Positions 11,641-16,970 of a stretch of DNA of 19,451 nucleotides are shown in pieces (within the stretch, counting starts at the first letter, position 1; each line of letters opens with the position of its first letter). Made by a program: the position numbers and the translations under genes. The notes below the pieces were generated by a model, which was not told where the DNA came from, did not search any database, and saw only the letters and a list, made by a program, of their open reading frames with translations. The stretch is taken from the IMG/VR virus record IMGVR_UViG_2576861193_000001. One strand, 5' to 3'. The stretch is from a virus (lineage: Duplodnaviria > Heunggongvirae > Uroviricota > Caudoviricetes).

Positions 11641-12056
11641 GTTTTGCCCTGAAACTGGCGCGTGAGATGGGGCGACCCGACTGGCGTGCCATGCTTGCCG
11701 GGATGTCATCCACGGAGTATGCCGACTGGCACCGCTTTTACAGTACCCATTATTTTCATGATGTTCTGCTGGATATGCACTTTTCCGGGCTGACGTACAC
11801 CGTGCTCAGCCTGTTTTTCAGCGATCCGGATATGCATCCGCTGGATTTCAGTCTGCTGAACCGGCGCGAGGCTGACGAAGAGCCTGAAGATGATGTGCTG
11901 ATGCAGAAAGCGGCAGGGCTTGCCGGAGGTGTCCGCTTTGGCCCGGACGGGAATGAAGTTATCCCTACTTCCCCGGATGTGGCGGACATGACGGAGGATG
12001 ACGTAATGCTGATGACAGTATCAGAAGGGATCGCAGGAGGAGTCCGGTATGGCTGA
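11218..12056 (+). CDS. GT: Tail assembly chaperone G-T fusion produced by -1 frameshift near 11621/11622
   Basis: G frame joined to the T frame at the slippery site. The T-frame product ...FDGELSFALKLAREMGRPDWRAMLAGMSSTEYADWHRFYSTHYF... is recognised as the lambda gpT portion. T is not expected to be translated independently. Confidence 0.85.
11616..11622 (+). promoter_or_regulatory. Programmed -1 ribosomal frameshift slippery heptamer G GGA AAG (G to G-T)
   Basis: GGGAAAG at 11616..11622 with GGA and AAG in the G zero frame; the -1 frame is open from 11622 to 12056 (the T frame). Matches the lambda G/GT frameshift site (established knowledge). Confidence 0.85.
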
Positions 12057-14628
12057 ACCGGTAGGCGATCTGGTCGTTGATTTGAGTCTGGATGCGGCCA
12101 GATTTGACGAGCAGATGGCCAGAGTCAGGCGTCATTTTTCCGGTACGGAAAGTGATGCGAAAAAAACAGCGGCAGTCGTTGAACAGTCGATGAACCGGCA
12201 GGCGCTGGCTGCACAGAAAGCGGGAATTTCCGTCGGGCAGTATAAAGCCGCCATGCGTATGCTGCCTGCGCAGTTCACTGACGTGGCCACGCAGCTTGCA
12301 GGCGGGCAAAGTCCGTGGCTGATCCTGCTGCAACAGGGGGGTCAGGTGAAGGACTCCTTCGGCGGGATGATCCCCATGTTCCGGGGGCTTGCCGGTGCGA
12401 TCACCCTGCCGATGGTGGGGGCCACCTCGCTGGCGGTGGCGACCGGTGCGCTGGCGTATGCCTGGTATCAGGGCAACTCAACCCTGTCCGATTTCAACAA
12501 AACGCTGGTCCTTTCCGGCAATCAGGCCGGGCTGACGGCAGATCGTATGCTGGTCCTGTCCAGAGCCGGGCAGGCGGCAGGGCTGACGTTTAACCAGACC
12601 AGCGAGTCACTCAGCGCACTGGTTAAGGCGGGGGTAAGCGGTGAGGCTCAGATTGCGTCCATCAGCCAGAGTGTGGCGCGTTTCTCCTCTGCATCCGGCG
12701 TGGAGGTGGACAAGGTCGCTGAAGCCTTCGGGAAGCTGACCACTGACCCGACGTCGGGGCTGACGGCGATGGCACGCCAGTTCCATAACGTGACGGCGGA
12801 GCAGATTGCGTATGTTGCTCAGTTGCAGCGTTCCGGCGATGAAGCCGGGGCATTGCAGGCGGCGAACGAGGCCGCAACGAAAGGGTTTGATGACCAGACC
12901 CGCCGCCTGAAAGAGAACATGGGCACGCTGGAAACCTGGGCAGACAGGACAGCACGGGCATTCAAATCCATGTGGGATTCGGTGCTGGATATTGGTCGCC
13001 CGGACACTGCCCAGGGAATGCTGGAGAAAGCAGAAAAGGCTTTTGATGAGGCGGACAAAAAATGGCAGTGGTATCAGAGCCGGAGCCACCGGCGCGGTAA
13101 AACCTCAGCATTTCTTGCCAATCTCCGGGGAGCATGGGAGGACAGAGCGAATGCGCAACTTGGGCTTTCAGCCGCCACGTTGCAGGCCGATCTTGAAAAG
13201 GCCAGAGAGATGGCAGCAAAGGACTGGGCCGAGTCTGAGGCATCACGGCTGAAATATACCGAAGAGGCGCAGAAGGCTTACGAACGGCTGCAGACGCCGC
13301 TGGAGAAATATACCGCCCGTCAGGAAGAACTGAACAAGGCACTGAAAGACGGGAAAATCCTGCAGGCGGATTACAACACGCTGATGGCGGCGGCGAAAAA
13401 GGATTATGAAGCGACGCTGAAAAAGCCGAAACAGTCCGGCGTGAAGGTGTCTGCGGGCGATCGTCAGGAAGACAGTGCTCATGCTGCCCTGCTGACGCTT
13501 CAGGCAGAACTCCGGACGCTGGAGAAGCATGCCGGAGCAAATGAGAAAATCAGCCAGCAGCGCCGGGATTTGTGGAAGGCGGAGAGTCAGTTCGCGGTAC
13601 TGGAGGAGGCGGCGCAACGTCGCCAGCTGTCTGCACAGGAGAAATCCCTGCTGGCGCATAAAGATGAGACGCTGGAGTACAAACGCCAGCTGGCTGCACT
13701 TGGCGACAAGGTTACGTATCAGGAGCGCCTGAACGCGCTGGCGCAGCAGGCGGATAAATTCGCACAGCAGCAACGGGCAAAACGGGCCGCCATTGATGCG
13801 AAAAGCCGGGGGCTGACTGACCGGCAGGCAGAACGGGAAGCCACGGAACAGCGCCTGAAGGAACAGTATGGCGATAATCCGCTGGCGCTGAATAACGTCA
13901 TGTCAGAGCAGAAAAAGACCTGGGCGGCTGAAGACCAGCTTCGCGGGAGCTGGATGGCAGGCCTGAAGTCCGGCTGGAGTGAGTGGGAAGAGAGCGCCAC
14001 GGACAGTATGTCGCAGGTTAAAAGTGCAGCCACGCAGACCTTTGATGGTATTGCACAGAATATGGCGGCGATGCTGACCGGCAGTGAGCAGAACTGGCGC
14101 AGCTTCACCCGTTCCGTGCTGTCCATGATGACAGAAATTCTGCTTAAGCAGGCAATGGTGGGGATTGTCGGGAGTATCGGCAGCGCCATTGGCGGTGCTG
14201 CCAGTGGTGGAGCATCCGCGTCAGGCGGTACAGCCATTCAGGCCGCTGCGGCGAAATTCCATTTTGCGACCGGGGGATTTACGGGAACCGGCGGCAAATA
14301 TGAGCCAGCGGGGATTGTTCACCGTGGTGAATTTGTCTTCACGAAGGAGGCAACCAGCCGGATTGGTGTCGGCAACCTGTACCGCCTGATGCGGGGCTAT
14401 GCGGAAGGTGGTTATGTGGGCGGTGCCGGAAGTCCGGCGCAGATGCGGCGGGCTGAAGGCATTAATTTTAATCAGAACAATCACGTGGTGATTCAGAACG
14501 ACGGTACGAATGGTCTGCCAGGTCCACAGATGATGAAGGCAGTGTATGACATGGCCCGCAAGGGTGCCCGTGATGAAATTCAGACACAGATGCGTGATGG
14601 TGGCCTGTTCTCCGGAGGTGGACGATGA
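12049..14628 (+). CDS. H: Tail tape measure protein H
   Basis: 859-aa ORF MAEPVGDLVVDLSLDAARFDEQMARVRRHFSGTESDAKKTAAVVEQ... recognised as lambda gpH. AGGAGG precedes the start, which overlaps the T-frame stop. Long Ala/Gln/Glu-rich helical middle and a Gly-rich C-terminus. Confidence 0.96.
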   Translation: MAEPVGDLVVDLSLDAARFDEQMARVRRHFSGTESDAKKTAAVVEQSMNRQALAAQKAGISVGQYKAAMRMLPAQFTDVATQLAGGQSPWLILLQQGGQVKDSFGGMIPMFRGLAGAITLPMVGATSLAVATGALAYAWYQGNSTLSDFNKTLVLSGNQAGLTADRMLVLSRAGQAAGLTFNQTSESLSALVKAGVSGEAQIASISQSVARFSSASGVEVDKVAEAFGKLTTDPTSGLTAMARQFHNVTAEQIAYVAQLQRSGDEAGALQAANEAATKGFDDQTRRLKENMGTLETWADRTARAFKSMWDSVLDIGRPDTAQGMLEKAEKAFDEADKKWQWYQSRSHRRGKTSAFLANLRGAWEDRANAQLGLSAATLQADLEKAREMAAKDWAESEASRLKYTEEAQKAYERLQTPLEKYTARQEELNKALKDGKILQADYNTLMAAAKKDYEATLKKPKQSGVKVSAGDRQEDSAHAALLTLQAELRTLEKHAGANEKISQQRRDLWKAESQFAVLEEAAQRRQLSAQEKSLLAHKDETLEYKRQLAALGDKVTYQERLNALAQQADKFAQQQRAKRAAIDAKSRGLTDRQAEREATEQRLKEQYGDNPLALNNVMSEQKKTWAAEDQLRGSWMAGLKSGWSEWEESATDSMSQVKSAATQTFDGIAQNMAAMLTGSEQNWRSFTRSVLSMMTEILLKQAMVGIVGSIGSAIGGAASGGASASGGTAIQAAAAKFHFATGGFTGTGGKYEPAGIVHRGEFVFTKEATSRIGVGNLYRLMRGYAEGGYVGGAGSPAQMRRAEGINFNQNNHVVIQNDGTNGLPGPQMMKAVYDMARKGARDEIQTQMRDGGLFSGGGR

Positions 14629-14954
14629 AAACCTTCCGCTGGAAAGTGAAACCCGGTATGGATGTGGCTTCGGCCCCTTCTGTAAGAAAGGTGCGCTTTG
14701 GTGATGGCTATTCCCAGCGAGCGCCTGCCGGGCTGAATGCCAACCTGAAAACGTACAGCGTGACGCTTTCTGTCCCCCGTGAGGAGGCCACGGTACTGGA
14801 GTCGTTTCTGGAAGAGCACGGGGGCTGGAAAGCCTTTCTGTGGACGCCGCCTTATGAGTGGCGGCAGATAAAGGTGACCTGCGCAAAATGGTCGTCGCGG
14901 GTCAGTATGCTGCGTGTTGAGTTCAGCGCAGAGTTTGAACAGGTGGTGAACTGA
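14625..14954 (+). CDS. M: Tail tip protein M
   Basis: 109-aa ORF MKTFRWKVKPGMDVASAPSVRKVRFGDGYSQRAPAGLNANLKTY... recognised as lambda gpM. ATGA overlap with the H stop. Confidence 0.96.
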   Translation: MKTFRWKVKPGMDVASAPSVRKVRFGDGYSQRAPAGLNANLKTYSVTLSVPREEATVLESFLEEHGGWKAFLWTPPYEWRQIKVTCAKWSSRVSMLRVEFSAEFEQVVN

Positions 14955-15652
14955 TGCAGGATATCCGGCAGGAAACACTGAATGAATGCACCCGTGCGGA
15001 GCAGTCGGCCAGCGTGGTGCTCTGGGAAATCGACCTGACAGAGGTCGGTGGAGAACGTTATTTTTTCTGTAATGAGCTGAACGAAAAAGGTGAGCCGGTC
15101 ACCTGGCAGGGGCGACAGTATCAGCCGTATCCCATTCAGGGGAGTGGTTTTGAACTGAATGGCAAAGGCACCAGTACGCGCCCCACGCTGACGGTTTCTA
15201 ACCTGTACGGTATGGTCACCGGGATGGCGGAAGATCTGCAGAGTCTGGTCGGCGGAACGGTGGTCCGGCGTAAGGTTTACGCCCGTTTTCTGGATGCGGT
15301 GAACTTCGTTAACGGAAACAGTGACGCCGATCCGGAGCAGGAGGTGATCAGCCGCTGGCGCATCGAGCAGTGCAGCGAACTGAGCGCGGTGAGTGCCTCC
15401 TTTGTACTGTCCACGCCGACGGAAACAGATGGCGCTGTTTTTCCGGGACGTATCATGCTGGCCAACACCTGCACCTGGACCTATCGCGGCGATGAGTGCG
15501 GTTATCACGGTCCGGCGGTCGCGGATGAATATGACCAGACAACGTCCGATATCACGAAGGATAAATGCAGCAAATGCCTGAGTGGCTGTAAGTTTCGCAA
15601 TAACGTCGGCAACTTTGGCGGCTTCCTTTCCATTAACAAACTTTCGCAGTAA
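14954..15652 (+). CDS. L: Tail tip protein L (C-terminal Cys cluster)
   Basis: 232-aa ORF MQDIRQETLNECTRAEQSASVVLWEIDLTEVGGERYFF... recognised as lambda gpL. C-terminal CSKCLSGCKF cysteine cluster is consistent with the reported Fe-S site. Start overlaps the M stop (TGATG). Confidence 0.96.
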   Translation: MQDIRQETLNECTRAEQSASVVLWEIDLTEVGGERYFFCNELNEKGEPVTWQGRQYQPYPIQGSGFELNGKGTSTRPTLTVSNLYGMVTGMAEDLQSLVGGTVVRRKVYARFLDAVNFVNGNSDADPEQEVISRWRIEQCSELSAVSASFVLSTPTETDGAVFPGRIMLANTCTWTYRGDECGYHGPAVADEYDQTTSDITKDKCSKCLSGCKFRNNVGNFGGFLSINKLSQ

Positions 15653-15657
15653 ATCCC

Positions 15658-16401
15658 ATGACACAGACAGAATCAGCGATTCTGGCGCACGCCCGGCGAT
15701 GTGCGCCAGCGGAGTCGTGCGGCTTCGTGGTAAGCACGCCGGAGGGGGAAAGATATTTCCCCTGCGTGAATATCTCCGGTGAGCCGGAGGCGTATTTCCG
15801 TATGTCGCCGGAGGACTGGCTGCAGGCAGAAATGCAGGGTGAGATTGTGGCGCTGGTCCACAGCCACCCCGGTGGTCTGCCCTGGCTGAGTGAGACTGAC
15901 CGGCGGCTGCAGGTGCAGAGTGATTTGCCGTGGTGGCTGGTCTGCCGGGGGACGATTCATAAGTTCCGCTGTGTGCCGCATCTCACCGGGCGGCGCTTTG
16001 AGCACGGTGTGACGGACTGTTACACACTGTTCCGGGATGCTTATCATCTGGCGGGGATTGAGATGCCGGACTTTCATCGTGAGGATGACTGGTGGCGTAA
16101 CGGCCAGAATCTCTATCTGGATAATCTGGAGGCCACAGGGCTGTATCAGGTGCCGTTGTCATCAGCACAACCGGGCGATGTGCTGCTGTGCTGTTTTGGT
16201 TCATCGGTGCCGAATCATGCCGCCATTTACTGTGGTGATGGCGAGCTGCTGCACCATATTCCTGAACAACTGAGCAAACGAGAGAGGTATACCGACAAAT
16301 GGCAGCGACGCACACACTCCCTCTGGCGTCACCGGGCATGGCGCGCATCTGCCTTTACGGGGATTTACAACGATTTGGCCGCCGCATCGACCTTCGTGTG
16401 A
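15658..16401 (+). CDS. K: Tail tip assembly protein K (JAMM/MPN-like domain followed by NlpC/P60-like domain); start ambiguous (15658 vs 15802)
   Basis: Open frame from ATG 15658 (6 nt after the L stop) to TGA 16401. A complete JAMM motif HSHPGGLPWLSETD (H-x-H-x7-S-x2-D) with an upstream Glu (AESCGF) is intact only if translation starts at 15658. The classical 199-aa lambda K would start at the internal ATG 15802. C-terminal Cys/His motifs (TDCYTLF, NHAAIY) suggest NlpC/P60. Confidence 0.85.
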   Translation: MTQTESAILAHARRCAPAESCGFVVSTPEGERYFPCVNISGEPEAYFRMSPEDWLQAEMQGEIVALVHSHPGGLPWLSETDRRLQVQSDLPWWLVCRGTIHKFRCVPHLTGRRFEHGVTDCYTLFRDAYHLAGIEMPDFHREDDWWRNGQNLYLDNLEATGLYQVPLSSAQPGDVLLCCFGSSVPNHAAIYCGDGELLHHIPEQLSKRERYTDKWQRRTHSLWRHRAWRASAFTGIYNDLAAASTFV

Positions 16402-16970
16402 AAACGGGGGCTGAAGCCATCCGCGCACTGGCCACACAGCTCCCGGCGTTTCGTCAGAAACTGAGCGACGGCTGGTATCAGGTACGGATTGCCGGGCAGG
16501 ATGTCAGCACGTCCGGATTAACGGCGCAGTTACATGAGACTCTGCCTGATGGCGCTGTGATTCATATTGTTCCCAGAGTCGCCGGGGCCAAGTCAGGTGG
16601 CGTATTCCAGATTGTCCTGGGGGCTGCCGCCATTGCCGGATCATTCTTTACCGCCGGGGCCACCCTTGCAGCATGGGGGGCAGCCATTGGGGCCGGTGGT
16701 ATGACCGGCATCCTGTTTTCTCTCGGTGCCAGTATGGTGCTCGGTGGTGTGGCGCAGATGCTGGCACCGAAAGCCAGAACTCCCCGTACACAGACAACGG
16801 ATAACGGCAAACAGAACACCTATTTCTCCTCACTGGATAACATGGTTGCCCAGGGCAATGTTCTGCCGGTTCTGTACGGTGAAATGCGCGTGGGGTCGCG
16901 GGTGGTCTCTCAGGAGATCAGCACGGCAGACGAAGGGGATGGTGGTCAGGTTGTGGTGATTGGTCGCTGA
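16299..16970 (+). CDS. I: Tail tip assembly protein I
   Basis: 223-aa ORF MAATHTLPLASPGMARICLYGDLQRFGRRIDLRVKTGAEAIRALA... recognised as lambda gpI. Overlaps the K 3' end by 103 nt in a different frame. Confidence 0.95.
   Translation: MAATHTLPLASPGMARICLYGDLQRFGRRIDLRVKTGAEAIRALATQLPAFRQKLSDGWYQVRIAGQDVSTSGLTAQLHETLPDGAVIHIVPRVAGAKSGGVFQIVLGAAAIAGSFFTAGATLAAWGAAIGAGGMTGILFSLGASMVLGGVAQMLAPKARTPRTQTTDNGKQNTYFSSLDNMVAQGNVLPVLYGEMRVGSRVVSQEISTADEGDGGQVVVIGR

What the first reader, a model, noticed from the sequence alone, without database searches (positions are those of the whole stretch)
15658..15801. K most likely starts 48 codons upstream of the classical start, completing a JAMM/MPN domain
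The frame is open from the ATG at 15658, six nucleotides after the L stop. Only with this N-terminal extension does the protein contain an upstream Glu plus the complete H-x-H-x7-S-x2-D motif (HSHPGGLPWLSETD) at a sensible distance from the N-terminus. The 199-aa form I recall for lambda K would put H-x-H at residues 20 to 22, truncating the fold. Combined with the C-terminal NlpC/P60-like Cys/His motifs, K would be a two-domain putative peptidase of the tail tip.
Basis: partly seen in the sequence, partly recalled or inferred. Interest (0 to 1): 0.45.

Follow-up and report, generated by a model that had tools for sequence, protein, structure and literature searches.

The report
Lambda K: full-length 247-residue protein
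The phage tail-assembly gene K really does start 48 codons earlier than in the classical lambda map, giving a complete two-domain peptidase; the short textbook version traces to one missing G in the 1982 reference sequence, and automated annotation of related prophages already uses the long form.

Summary
In this window the K frame is open from ATG 15658, 5 nt after the L stop, to 16401 (247 aa).

- **Domain evidence.** Only the long form holds a complete Prok-JAB/JAMM domain: Pfam 53 bits against a cut-off of 25. The 199-aa form scores 24.4 and fails. The motif residues are E19, H68, H70, S78 and D81.
- **Conservation.** The 48 extra residues are conserved in 84 distant homologues (E19 84/85, G22 and N38 85/85). 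Met49, the classical start, is not (12/85).
- **Structure.** The extra residues fold as helix 1 and strands 1-2 of the domain in an AlphaFold model (pLDDT 97).
- **Start position.** In 78 of 80 diverse phage loci the first start codon lies within -4 to +3 codons of this position, usually next to the L stop.
- **Why lambda says 199 aa.** J02459/NC_001416 lacks one G (between 14266 and 14267, window 15792). That breaks the long frame. Every other lambda-like record and two independent resequencings have the G.

The JAB+NlpC/P60 architecture of K was published in 2003-2006, and NCBI's PGAP pipeline already aa, so this is a correction, not a discovery. RefSeq, UniProt and recent papers still use the truncated protein. 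The long start has no Shine-Dalgarno sequence, and no N-terminal protein data were found.

The parts
15650..15652 (+). Stop codon (TAA) of gene L. It lies 5 nt upstream of the K start.
   Evidence: L is Pfam Phage_tail_L at 333 bits.
15658..16401 (+). Full-length gene K: 247 codons plus the TGA stop.
   Evidence: Listed as an ORF. PGAP annotates the identical interval as the 247-aa 'C40 family peptidase' WP_000194781.1. AlphaFold model: mean pLDDT 97.2, pTM 0.91.
15658..15801 (+). The N-terminal 48 codons missing from the classical lambda annotation. They form helix 3-15 and strands 21-27 and 30-36 of the JAB/MPN fold, and include the catalytic Glu19 (15712-15714).
15664..15969 (+). Prok-JAB (JAMM/MPN+) domain, residues 3-104.
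   Evidence: Pfam PF14464 at 53.4 bits, cut-off 25. A profile of the homologues hits PDB 2kks, 2kcq and JAMM1 over profile positions 2-108. Foldseek matches 5ld9.
15786..15790 (+). GGAGG inside codons 43-45. It sits 11 nt before ATG 15802 and is the ribosome-binding site that curators annotate for the short K.
   Evidence: Duplex energy with the anti-SD is -9.5 kcal/mol, in the top 2.8% of 423 ATGs in the window. It is annotated as an RBS in OM418625. It occurs only in the close lambda clade.
15792..15792 (+). The G that is absent from the lambda reference J02459/NC_001416, between reference positions 14266 and 14267. Its absence breaks the long K frame there.
   Evidence: Alignment. ORF lists: a 76-aa frameshifted ORF plus the 199-aa K in the reference, against a 247-aa ORF in OM418625. 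Only 4 of 108 records carry the deletion allele. Resequencing data.
15802..15804 (+). The classical K start codon (Met49). It is an internal residue of the JAB domain.
   Evidence: The aligned residue is Ile in 54 of 85 homologues and Met in 12 of 85.
15859..15900 (+). JAMM zinc-site motif H68-S-H70-x7-S78-x2-D81.
   Evidence: Read from the sequence. H68, H70 and D81 are invariant in 85 of 85; S78 is present in 80 of 85.
15988..16329 (+). NlpC/P60 (C40, papain-like) peptidase domain, residues 111-224. Catalytic candidates are C121 (16018-16020), H187 (16216-16218) and H199 (16252-16254).
   Evidence: Pfam PF00877 at 49.3 bits, cut-off 23. Conservation is 84/85, 84/85 and 85/85. Foldseek matches MepS, LytE and Acd33800.
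16299..16970 (+). Gene I, classical 223-aa form. It overlaps the end of K in another frame. It has an N-terminal ubiquitin-like domain (residues 14-97) and is the proposed substrate of the K JAB domain.
   Evidence: Pfam PF06805, residues 14-97, profile positions 2-83 of 83. Conservation of Y20, G21, L23, P92 and G96. The hypothesis is from PMC1779556.

Best explanation
Gene K is translated from ATG 15658 into a 247-residue cytoplasmic assembly protein. It has two peptidase domains: an N-terminal JAB/JAMM zinc metallopeptidase (residues 3-104) and a C-terminal NlpC/P60 cysteine peptidase (residues 111-224).

The start has no Shine-Dalgarno sequence and sits 5 nt after the L stop. Initiation is therefore most likely by ribosomes that have just terminated on L (translational coupling). 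This step is inferred.

The 199-aa K of the lambda map is an annotation artefact. The 1982 reference sequence lacks one G, 10 nt upstream of the internal ATG. In that record the long frame shifts at codon 45 and stops, and the next ATG with a good SD was taken as the start. The short call was then copied by similarity into records where the frame is open.

Function is inferred, not shown. K acts catalytically during tail-tip initiation and is not kept in the virion. The most likely reaction is the one proposed by Iyer et al. 2006: the JAB domain cleaves the ubiquitin-like N-terminal domain off gpI at or just after its invariant C-terminal glycine.
For: **Reading frame and domain**
- ORF and coordinates.
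- Pfam Prok-JAB: long form 53.4 bits over profile 3-112 of 114. The short form covers only profile 63-112 at 24.4 bits, below the cut-off of 25.
- 84 homologues of 33-58% identity: E19 84/85, G22 85/85, N38 85/85, F47 82/85, Met49 12/85. Their N-termini coincide within 0-8 residues.
- The homologue profile aligns to stand-alone solved JAB proteins (2kks, 2kcq) from their residue 4.
- AlphaFold: pLDDT 97-98 for residues 1-48, forming helix 3-15 and strands 21-27 and 30-36.
- Foldseek: JAMM1 5ld9, TM 0.67, rmsd 2.6 A.

**Start position in other phages**
- In 78 of 80 loci of 26-76% identity, the first in-frame start lies within -4 to +3 codons of the homologous position. The L-stop to K-start gap is -20 to +12 nt in about 62 of 79.
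- The internal ATG plus SD occurs only in the close lambda clade: 52/58 at 90% identity or more, and 0/55 below 70%.

**The reference frameshift**
- Alignment and ORF lists.
- Only J02459, its RefSeq copy and two records identical to the reference across the left arm carry the deletion, 4 of 108 records.
- 454 resequencing of ATCC lambda found the G in 232 of 235 reads (PMC3059205 Table S5).
- Lambda_AGU LC730321 has it too.

**Annotation and biology**
- PGAP aa, and the exact long lambda protein is on at least 1000 contigs.
- gpK is absent from virions by mass spectrometry (PMC10721106).
- gpI is resolved only from residue 101 (PMC11101478), just after invariant G96 and G100-G101.
Against: - The long start has no SD (duplex energy +0.7 kcal/mol). 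The internal ATG has a strong one (-9.5, top 2.8% of ATGs in the window).
- Many gene callers and the curated CPT, DE3 and HK630 records choose the short start.
- I found no N-terminal sequence, gel size, ribosome-profiling or peptide evidence for either start.
- Two records that carry the Sam7 marker also lack the G. I could not prove these records are reference-derived, so a real frameshift in the strain Sanger sequenced is not formally excluded. My recollection that the supplier's corrected lambda cI857 Sam7 sequence has +G at 14266 and a deleted G at 138 is from memory only.
- No peptidase activity of K and no cleavage of gpI has been demonstrated.
Confidence: 0.9

Rival explanations
1. 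Two products. In lambda and its closest relatives, both the 247-aa protein and a 199-aa protein are made. The short one would start internally at ATG 15802, driven by the GGAGG at 15786. Nested in-frame starts are known elsewhere in lambda (C/Nu3, S107/S105).
For: The internal start has an SD in the top 2.8% of all ATGs in the window. The ATG plus SD pair is kept in 52 of 58 distinct sequences of the close clade. Codon 45 varies among Ala, Asp and Glu, all of which keep the fifth G of GGAGG.
Against: The pair is absent from all 55 contexts below 70% identity. Within the close clade it is lost by single changes: ATG to CTG or ATA, and GGAGG to TGAGG or GGAAG. The short product would carry 62 residues of a broken JAB fold lacking helix 1, strands 1-2 and Glu19. 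The 11-nt spacing is longer than optimal.
Confidence: 0.15
2. The classical annotation is right. K is the 199-aa protein starting at 15802, and the upstream 48 codons are untranslated spacer that happens to be open.
For: This is the long-standing curated annotation in J02459, RefSeq and UniProt TIPK_LAMBD. There is a strong SD before 15802.
Against: That annotation was made on a sequence in which the upstream frame is broken by a missing base. The 'spacer' encodes conserved catalytic and structural residues of a known domain. It evolves like coding sequence. Met49 is Ile in most homologues. A 149-nt untranslated gap would be unique in an operon whose neighbours overlap or abut. The region holds no RNA family, and nothing above shuffle expectation in the promoter and terminator scan.
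Confidence: 0.03
3. K starts at an intermediate codon, such as GTG 15727 (224 aa) or the 211-aa start used in KT232076.
For: Some database entries use these starts (P0029 at 224 aa and P0039 at 211 aa). There is a weak GGAG before GTG 15727, at -6.1 kcal/mol.
Against: These starts would delete helix 1 and the near-invariant P17, E19, C21 and G22. Homologues align from residue 1-9, and the first start in 78 of 80 loci is at the position of 15658.
Confidence: 0.02

Closest known systems
[quoted passage not shown] Corresponds to PGAP 'C40 family peptidase' WP_000194781.1 and phrog_30.
   Same: It has the same gene position (L-K-I-J), the same 247-aa length and the same JAB + NlpC/P60 architecture. 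The window protein is about 96% identical to the long lambda protein at the amino-acid level (about 97.5% at the DNA level) and belongs to the same 90% cluster.
   Different: Nothing of substance. The only difference is from the 199-aa curated lambda entry (AAA96551, NP_040598, TIPK_LAMBD), which lacks residues 1-48 because of the reference frameshift.
Stand-alone prokaryotic and archaeal JAMM/MPN+ isopeptidases: Pyrococcus furiosus JAMM1 (PDB 5ld9, 5lda with the ubiquitin-like protein SAMP2), Haloferax desampylase, AfJAMM (1r5x), DSY2949 (2kks).
   Same: It has the same E...HxH-x7-S-x2-D zinc site, with spacing close to the AfJAMM numbering as I recall it (E22, H67, H69, S77, D80; from memory) against K E19, H68, H70, S78, D81. 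The fold is the same (TM 0.67 to 5ld9). The size is the same at about 105-130 residues, starting at the protein's N-terminus. Like JAMM1/SAMP2, it is encoded next to a ubiquitin-like protein that ends in Gly.
   Different: K's JAB domain is fused to an NlpC/P60 domain and sits in a phage tail operon. Its score against the desampylase equivalog model is far below cut-off (31.8 against 130 bits). Activity and substrate are untested.
NlpC/P60 cell-wall endopeptidases (E. coli MepS/Spr, B. subtilis LytE/CwlO, C. difficile Acd33800).
   Same: It has the papain-like fold and a conserved Cys-His-His set: C121, H187, H199.
   Different: gpK was not detected in virions by mass spectrometry, so a role in cell-wall digestion during infection looks unlikely. 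Whether it has a signal peptide or a wall-binding domain was not tested here. The substrate is more likely a phage protein.

Membership tests
JAB/JAMM (MPN+) metallopeptidases, Pfam PF14464 Prok-JAB | Profile score above the curated gathering threshold over the whole domain. | tested here: met
   Long form: 53.4 bits against 25, profile 3-112 of 114. The 199-aa form scores 24.4 bits and fails the cut-off.
JAB/JAMM (MPN+) metallopeptidases, Pfam PF14464 Prok-JAB | Catalytic motif E-x(n)-H-[ST]-H-x7-S-x2-D. | tested here: met
   E19, H68, S69, H70, S78 and D81 are in the sequence. Conservation is 84/85, 85/85, 81/85, 85/85, 80/85 and 85/85.
JAB/JAMM (MPN+) metallopeptidases, Pfam PF14464 Prok-JAB | MPN fold that includes the N-terminal helix and the first beta-hairpin. 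| tested here: met
   This rests on a predicted model only. pLDDT is 97, with helix 3-15 and strands 21-27 and 30-36. Foldseek gives 5ld9 at TM 0.67 and rmsd 2.6 A, plus Rpn11, CSN5 and AMSH.
JAB/JAMM (MPN+) metallopeptidases, Pfam PF14464 Prok-JAB | Zinc binding and (iso)peptidase activity. | not testable with these tools
   No biochemical data on gpK were found in the searchable literature.
NlpC/P60 (MEROPS C40) peptidases, Pfam PF00877 | Profile score above the gathering threshold. | tested here: met
   49.3 bits against 23, residues 111-224, profile 1-105 of 105.
NlpC/P60 (MEROPS C40) peptidases, Pfam PF00877 | Conserved catalytic Cys and His residues on a papain-like fold. | tested here: met
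   C121 84/85, H187 84/85, H199 85/85. Fold matches to MepS, LytE and Acd33800.
NlpC/P60 (MEROPS C40) peptidases, Pfam PF00877 | Peptidase activity on a defined substrate. | not testable with these tools
   Requires an enzyme assay on purified protein with a candidate substrate.
Lambda-type tail-tip assembly protein K (TAPK) | The gene lies between the L homologue (Phage_tail_L) and the I homologue (Lambda_tail_I), upstream of J. | tested here: met
   The L-K junction is conserved in diverse loci.
Lambda-type tail-tip assembly protein K (TAPK) | Required for tail assembly but absent from the virion. | not testable with these tools
   From the literature on lambda itself only: PMC10721106 and PMC12617516.

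The most novel reading that the evidence does not exclude
K is an active protease of tail-tip assembly with a ubiquitin-system logic. Its JAB domain would remove the ubiquitin-like N-terminal domain of gpI by cutting at or just after the invariant Gly96 (...PRVAG|AKSGG|V...). This would leave only the membrane-active C-terminal part, resolved from residue 101, in the virion.

One of the two peptidase domains might also be the still-unidentified protease that cuts the tape-measure protein gpH to gpH* in its glycine-rich region.

A more remote reading is that a phage-borne JAB enzyme strips ubiquitin-like tags that bacterial Bil-type defence systems attach to the central tail fibre. That defence biology is from my own knowledge and was not checked here.
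Probability: 0.35. Interest if true: 0.6.

Novelty: already known. Interest (0 to 1): 0.3.

Why it matters
Lambda is the reference for siphophage tail assembly. Its RefSeq record, its reviewed UniProt entry and many derived records describe an essential tail gene as a protein that lacks half of one catalytic domain.

Work built on that annotation has used the truncated protein:
- An HHpred survey saw only a peptidase domain at residues 52-182 of 199 (PMC7291167).
- A 2025 library of phage triggers expressed NP_040598.1, the 199-aa form.

A lambda two-hybrid map found no tail-protein partners for K (PMC3224144). I did not check which K clone it used, but a clone built from the reference annotation would be the truncated form.

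Using the 247-aa form makes a twenty-year-old prediction properly testable: that a phage carries a ubiquitin-like protein and deubiquitinase pair, I and K, for tail assembly. It also offers a candidate for the unknown gpH protease.

For annotation practice it is a clear case of two failure modes. A single-base reference error can propagate by similarity-based curation. SD-weighted start calling can pick an internal ATG over a translationally coupled start.

Tried and rejected
**Searches that gave nothing**
- The search for related loci with the 85-sequence alignment failed, because no stretch was conserved enough. The scan with the distant homologue P0170 found nothing. Single proteins P0131 and P0083 worked instead.
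- No paper states that the 199-aa lambda K results from the missing G or gives its true N-terminus.
- The Casjens & Hendrix 2015 review and the Liu et al. 2013 lambda ribosome-profiling paper are not held in the library. The most relevant experimental data set could therefore not be consulted.
- PMC2966988 and PMC3045373 mention lambda resequencing but say nothing about this site. PMC10695390 does not mention K by name.

**Analyses corrected or dropped**
- My first ungapped polymorphism count was corrupted by the two frameshifted reference loci. It was redone without them.
- I considered modelling a K-I complex, or the natural K-I fusion proteins P0030, P0015 and P0082. I dropped this for two reasons. 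The fusions are frameshift products that lack either the last strand and helix of K or the first strands of I. The structure tool also returns no coordinates, so docking of the gpI tail into the JAB site could not be read.
- A model of the 199-aa form was not run. High or low confidence would both be weak evidence.

**Alternatives checked and rejected**
- A functional non-coding element in 15653-15801 was rejected. There is no Rfam family, and the promoter and terminator scan found nothing above shuffle expectation.

Full report
**What is in the window.** The window is the tail region of a lambda-like phage or prophage. It runs from the tape-measure gene H (12049-14628) through M (14625-14954), L (14954-15652) and K to I (16299-16970), with J following. 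Around the finding the DNA is about 97.5% identical to phage lambda. It is 100% identical over 201 nt to prophages in many E. coli genomes, and the region is present in 4329 of 5426 complete genomes.

**The observation.**
- The L stop TAA is at 15650-15652. Five nucleotides later, ATG 15658 opens a frame that runs to TGA 16399-16401, giving 247 aa.
- It is the first possible start after the upstream in-frame stop.
- The classical lambda start corresponds to ATG 15802, which is Met49.
The upstream glutamate is E19.
- All of this is exactly as described.

**Is the extension coding?** Four independent lines say yes.

1. *Profile boundaries.*
   - Pfam Prok-JAB matches residues 3-104 of the long form over profile positions 3-112 of 114, at 53.4 bits (gathering cut-off 25).
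   - The 199-aa form retains only profile positions 63-112 and scores 24.4 bits, below the cut-off.
   - The 48 residues alone score E = 5.8e-5 against the N-terminal third of the profile.
2. *Distant conservation.*
   - A full HMMER search of 1.84 billion representatives returned 2805 relatives. The full-length ones are 230-260 aa and align from query residues 1-19.
   - I aligned 84 of these, at 33-58% identity. Choosing full-length hits is a selection, and one listed exception, P0254 (202 aa), aligns only from residue 47.
   - P17 (79/85), E19 (84/85), C21 (80/85), G22 (85/85), N38 (85/85) and F47 (82/85) are as conserved as the zinc ligands.
   - Mean identity to the query is 33% for residues 1-48 and 35% for residues 49-110.
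   - Met49 is Ile in 54 sequences and Met in only 12.
3. *Close relatives.*
   - In 84 loci of 97-99% identity (70 distinct sequences), ATG 15658 is present in all.
   - No sequence has a stop or frameshift.
   - Polymorphic sites in the extension fall 6/2/16 on codon positions 1/2/3, like the downstream part at 9/2/24.
   - Two sequences have lost the internal ATG, to CTG and ATA.
4. *Structure.*
   - With the 85-sequence alignment, AlphaFold2 gives mean pLDDT 97.2 and pTM 0.91.
   - Residues 1-48 have pLDDT 97-98 and form helix 3-15 and strands 21-27 and 30-36. This is ordered structure, not a disordered leader.
   - Foldseek superposes the model on P. furiosus JAMM1 (5ld9: TM 0.67 normalised to the target, rmsd 2.6 A, 107 columns) and on Rpn11, CSN5 and AMSH.
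   - The C-terminal half superposes on MepS, LytE and Acd33800.
   - A profile of the homologues aligns to the stand-alone solved JAB proteins 2kks and 2kcq from their residue 4. The domain therefore begins at the N-terminus of the long form.

**Gene arrangement elsewhere.**
- I examined 80 viral contigs carrying K homologues of 26-76% identity.
- In 78 of them, the first in-frame start after the upstream stop lies within -4 to +3 codons of the position homologous to ATG 15658.
- The distance from the stop of the L homologue to that start is between -20 and +12 nt in about 62 of 79. The rest have roughly 0.6-0.9 kb between the L match and K.
- A 149-nt untranslated gap, as the classical annotation implies, would be unique in this operon. 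H/M overlap by 4 nt, M/L by 1 nt, and L/K are 5 nt apart.
- The gap region holds no Rfam family, and the promoter and terminator scan found nothing above shuffle expectation.

**Why lambda is annotated with 199 aa.**

- *The deletion.*
  - I aligned the window with NC_001416, OM418625 (lambda imm21) and PhiR46_1. The reference lacks one G in GGAGGC[G]TATTTCC (window 15792, between reference 14266 and 14267).
  - In the reference, the ORF from the ATG after L (14133) shifts frame at codon 45 and ends after 76 aa. The K frame can only be entered at ATG 14276.
  - In OM418625 the same ATG opens a 247-aa ORF.
- *How widespread it is.*
  - A 59-nt probe carrying the deletion allele matches exactly only 4 of 108 phage records: J02459, its RefSeq copy, OR474059 and OR974322.
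  - Every other record has the extra base. That includes DE3, lambda imm21, imm434 and h434, HK629 and HK630, KT232076, PV340536, LC730321 and Lambda_ev058.
- *Resequencing.*
  - 454 resequencing of ATCC lambda found an inserted G at reference 14267 in 232 of 235 reads, and a deleted G at 138 (PMC3059205 Table S5).
  - The independently sequenced Lambda_AGU (LC730321) has the same two indels and seven of the same substitutions.
- *The two exceptions.*
  - OR474059 is an UNVERIFIED engineered strain. OR974322 is a 'chicken cloacal swab' isolate in reference coordinates.
  - Both carry the Sam7 marker. Both are otherwise identical to the reference across the whole left arm, including positions 138 and 542.
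  - They look reference-derived, though I cannot prove it.
- *From memory only.* I recall the supplier's corrected sequence of lambda cI857 ind1 Sam7 listing exactly 'deletion at 138, insertion of G at 14266'. I could not verify this with the tools.
- *Most economical reading.* A single-base omission in the 1982 sequence forced the short call.

**How annotation stands now.**
- Records curated by similarity to lambda keep 199 aa although their frame is open. These include DE3, HK630 and the CPT lambda hybrids, the last with an annotated RBS.
- KT232076 uses a 211-aa start.
- De novo pipelines aa. These include PGAP with WP_000194781.1, and PV340536 and PhiR46_1.
- In the 5.8-billion-protein collection, both forms head clusters with thousands of members. 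The exact long lambda protein is seen on at least 1000 contigs, under names including 'Predicted metal-dependent protease of the PAD1/JAB1 superfamily'. The 199-aa form is UniProt TIPK_LAMBD.

**The one real argument for the short start.**
- ATG 15658 has no Shine-Dalgarno sequence (best duplex with the anti-SD, +0.7 kcal/mol).
- ATG 15802 is preceded at 11 nt by GGAGG (-9.5 kcal/mol, top 2.8% of the 423 ATGs on this strand). This is why SD-weighted callers and human curators prefer it.
- The ATG plus SD pair is confined to the close lambda clade. It occurs in 52 of 58 distinct contexts at 90% identity or more, 6 of 16 at 70-89%, and 0 of 55 below 70%. Within the clade it is lost in a few sequences.
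- I therefore take the long start as the conserved one. It is probably served by termination-reinitiation from L, which is an inference. I leave about 15% for an additional lineage-specific short isoform.

**What K does.**
- *Shown here.*
  - K has a complete JAMM site and a complete NlpC/P60 Cys/His set on confidently predicted folds.
  - It sits next to gene I. The N-terminal domain of I (Pfam Lambda_tail_I, residues 14-97) is the ubiquitin-like beta-grasp described by Iyer et al..
- *From the literature.*
  - K is required for tail assembly.
  - It was not detected in virions by mass spectrometry and is not seen in cryo-EM maps.
  - gpI is in the virion but is resolved only from residue 101, or from 134-135 in other maps.
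- *Conservation in gpI.* In 50 distinct I sequences, P92, G96 and G108 are invariant and G100/G101 are nearly so. The ordered virion part therefore begins right after the glycines that end the ubiquitin-like domain.
- *Bearing on the hypothesis.* This fits the 2006 proposal that the JAB domain clips off the ubiquitin-like domain. It fits a flexible, uncleaved N-terminal domain equally well.
- *A speculative second substrate.* The protease that converts gpH to gpH* in a glycine-rich region is still unknown.

**Comparison with what is known, and novelty.**
- The JAMM motif of lambda K was listed in 2003-2004 using the 199-aa entry (PMC300881).
- The JAB + NlpC/P60 architecture of the family and its link to the ubiquitin-like I protein were described in 2006 (PMC1779556).
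- PGAP annotates the long form in E. coli prophages.
- The finding is therefore already known in substance.
- I could not find one point stated in the searchable literature: that the canonical lambda entry is truncated because of the missing G. The truncated protein is still being used.

**Verdict.** It is a real and useful correction of a famous reference annotation, but not a new kind of biology.

Noticed in passing
window 16299-16970 (gene I); alternative starts ATG 16338 (Met14) and GTG 16398: This is the mirror image of the K problem. PGAP and Pharokka-type records call a 190-aa I that starts at GTG 16398, a GTGA overlap with the K stop. That start removes the first two strands of the ubiquitin-like domain. 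Pfam Lambda_tail_I covers profile 2-83 at residues 14-97 of the 223-aa form, but only profile 26-83 in the 190-aa form. Residues upstream of the GTG are conserved in 50 distinct sequences (49 diverse homologues plus the window): Y20 47/50, G21 50/50, L23 50/50, G27 42/50. The classical lambda start, which has a good SD at -9.3 kcal/mol, or Met14 is therefore right. K and I then truly overlap by 64-103 nt.
   Followed up: partly
lambda reference NC_001416/J02459, whole genome (L173), against LC730321 (L172): Two independent resequencings, ATCC lambda by 454 and Lambda_AGU, share nine differences from the reference. These are a deleted G at 138, 542 C>T, the inserted G at 14267, 20661, 22444, 25662, 31016, 34934 and 45618. 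They are either reference errors or variants private to the strain Sanger sequenced. Lambda_AGU also has the extra C at 20833, which I recall (from memory) restores the side tail fibre gene.
   Followed up: partly
window 16299-16970, gpI residues 92-108 (about 16572-16622): The junction between the ubiquitin-like domain and the hydrophobic helices of gpI reads P92-x3-G96-[AS]-K-x-G100-G101. P92, G96 and G108 are invariant. Published cryo-EM maps resolve gpI only from residue 101, or from 134-135. This is compatible with removal of the N-terminal domain by the K JAB domain, but also with simple disorder.
   Followed up: partly
database proteins P0020, P0035, P0042, P0047, P0051 (L-K fusions) and P0015, P0030, P0082, P0118 (K-I fusions): Many database entries fuse L to K or K to I in one polypeptide. 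The K-I fusions I inspected join the frames inside the overlap and lose structural elements of one partner. They look like indel or assembly artefacts rather than natural fusions. The L-K fusions were not inspected, but the 5-nt L-K spacer makes such fusions one indel away.
   Followed up: partly
PHROGs phrog_7305 (76-position profile), matched by window 15658-15885: A PHROG family of 'unknown function' is just the first 76 residues of K. I suspect it collects truncated or frameshifted N-terminal K fragments, but its members were not examined. The reference lambda sequence itself yields a 76-aa frameshifted ORF from the same ATG.
   Followed up: no
window 12049-14628 (gene H), C-terminal glycine-rich region: The tape-measure protein has a Gly-rich stretch (...SAIGGAASGGASASGGTAIQ...GGFTGTGGK...) near the region where gpH is cut to gpH*. 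A 2025 structural paper states that the protease and the cleavage site are unknown. K, with two peptidase domains and a role early in tail-tip assembly, is an untested candidate.
   Followed up: no
L091 (NZ_CP027368.1 93852-96412): In the E. coli prophage that is 100% identical to the window across the 201-nt query at the L-K junction, the tape-measure gene is annotated as a frameshifted pseudogene. That particular prophage may therefore be defective.
   Followed up: no
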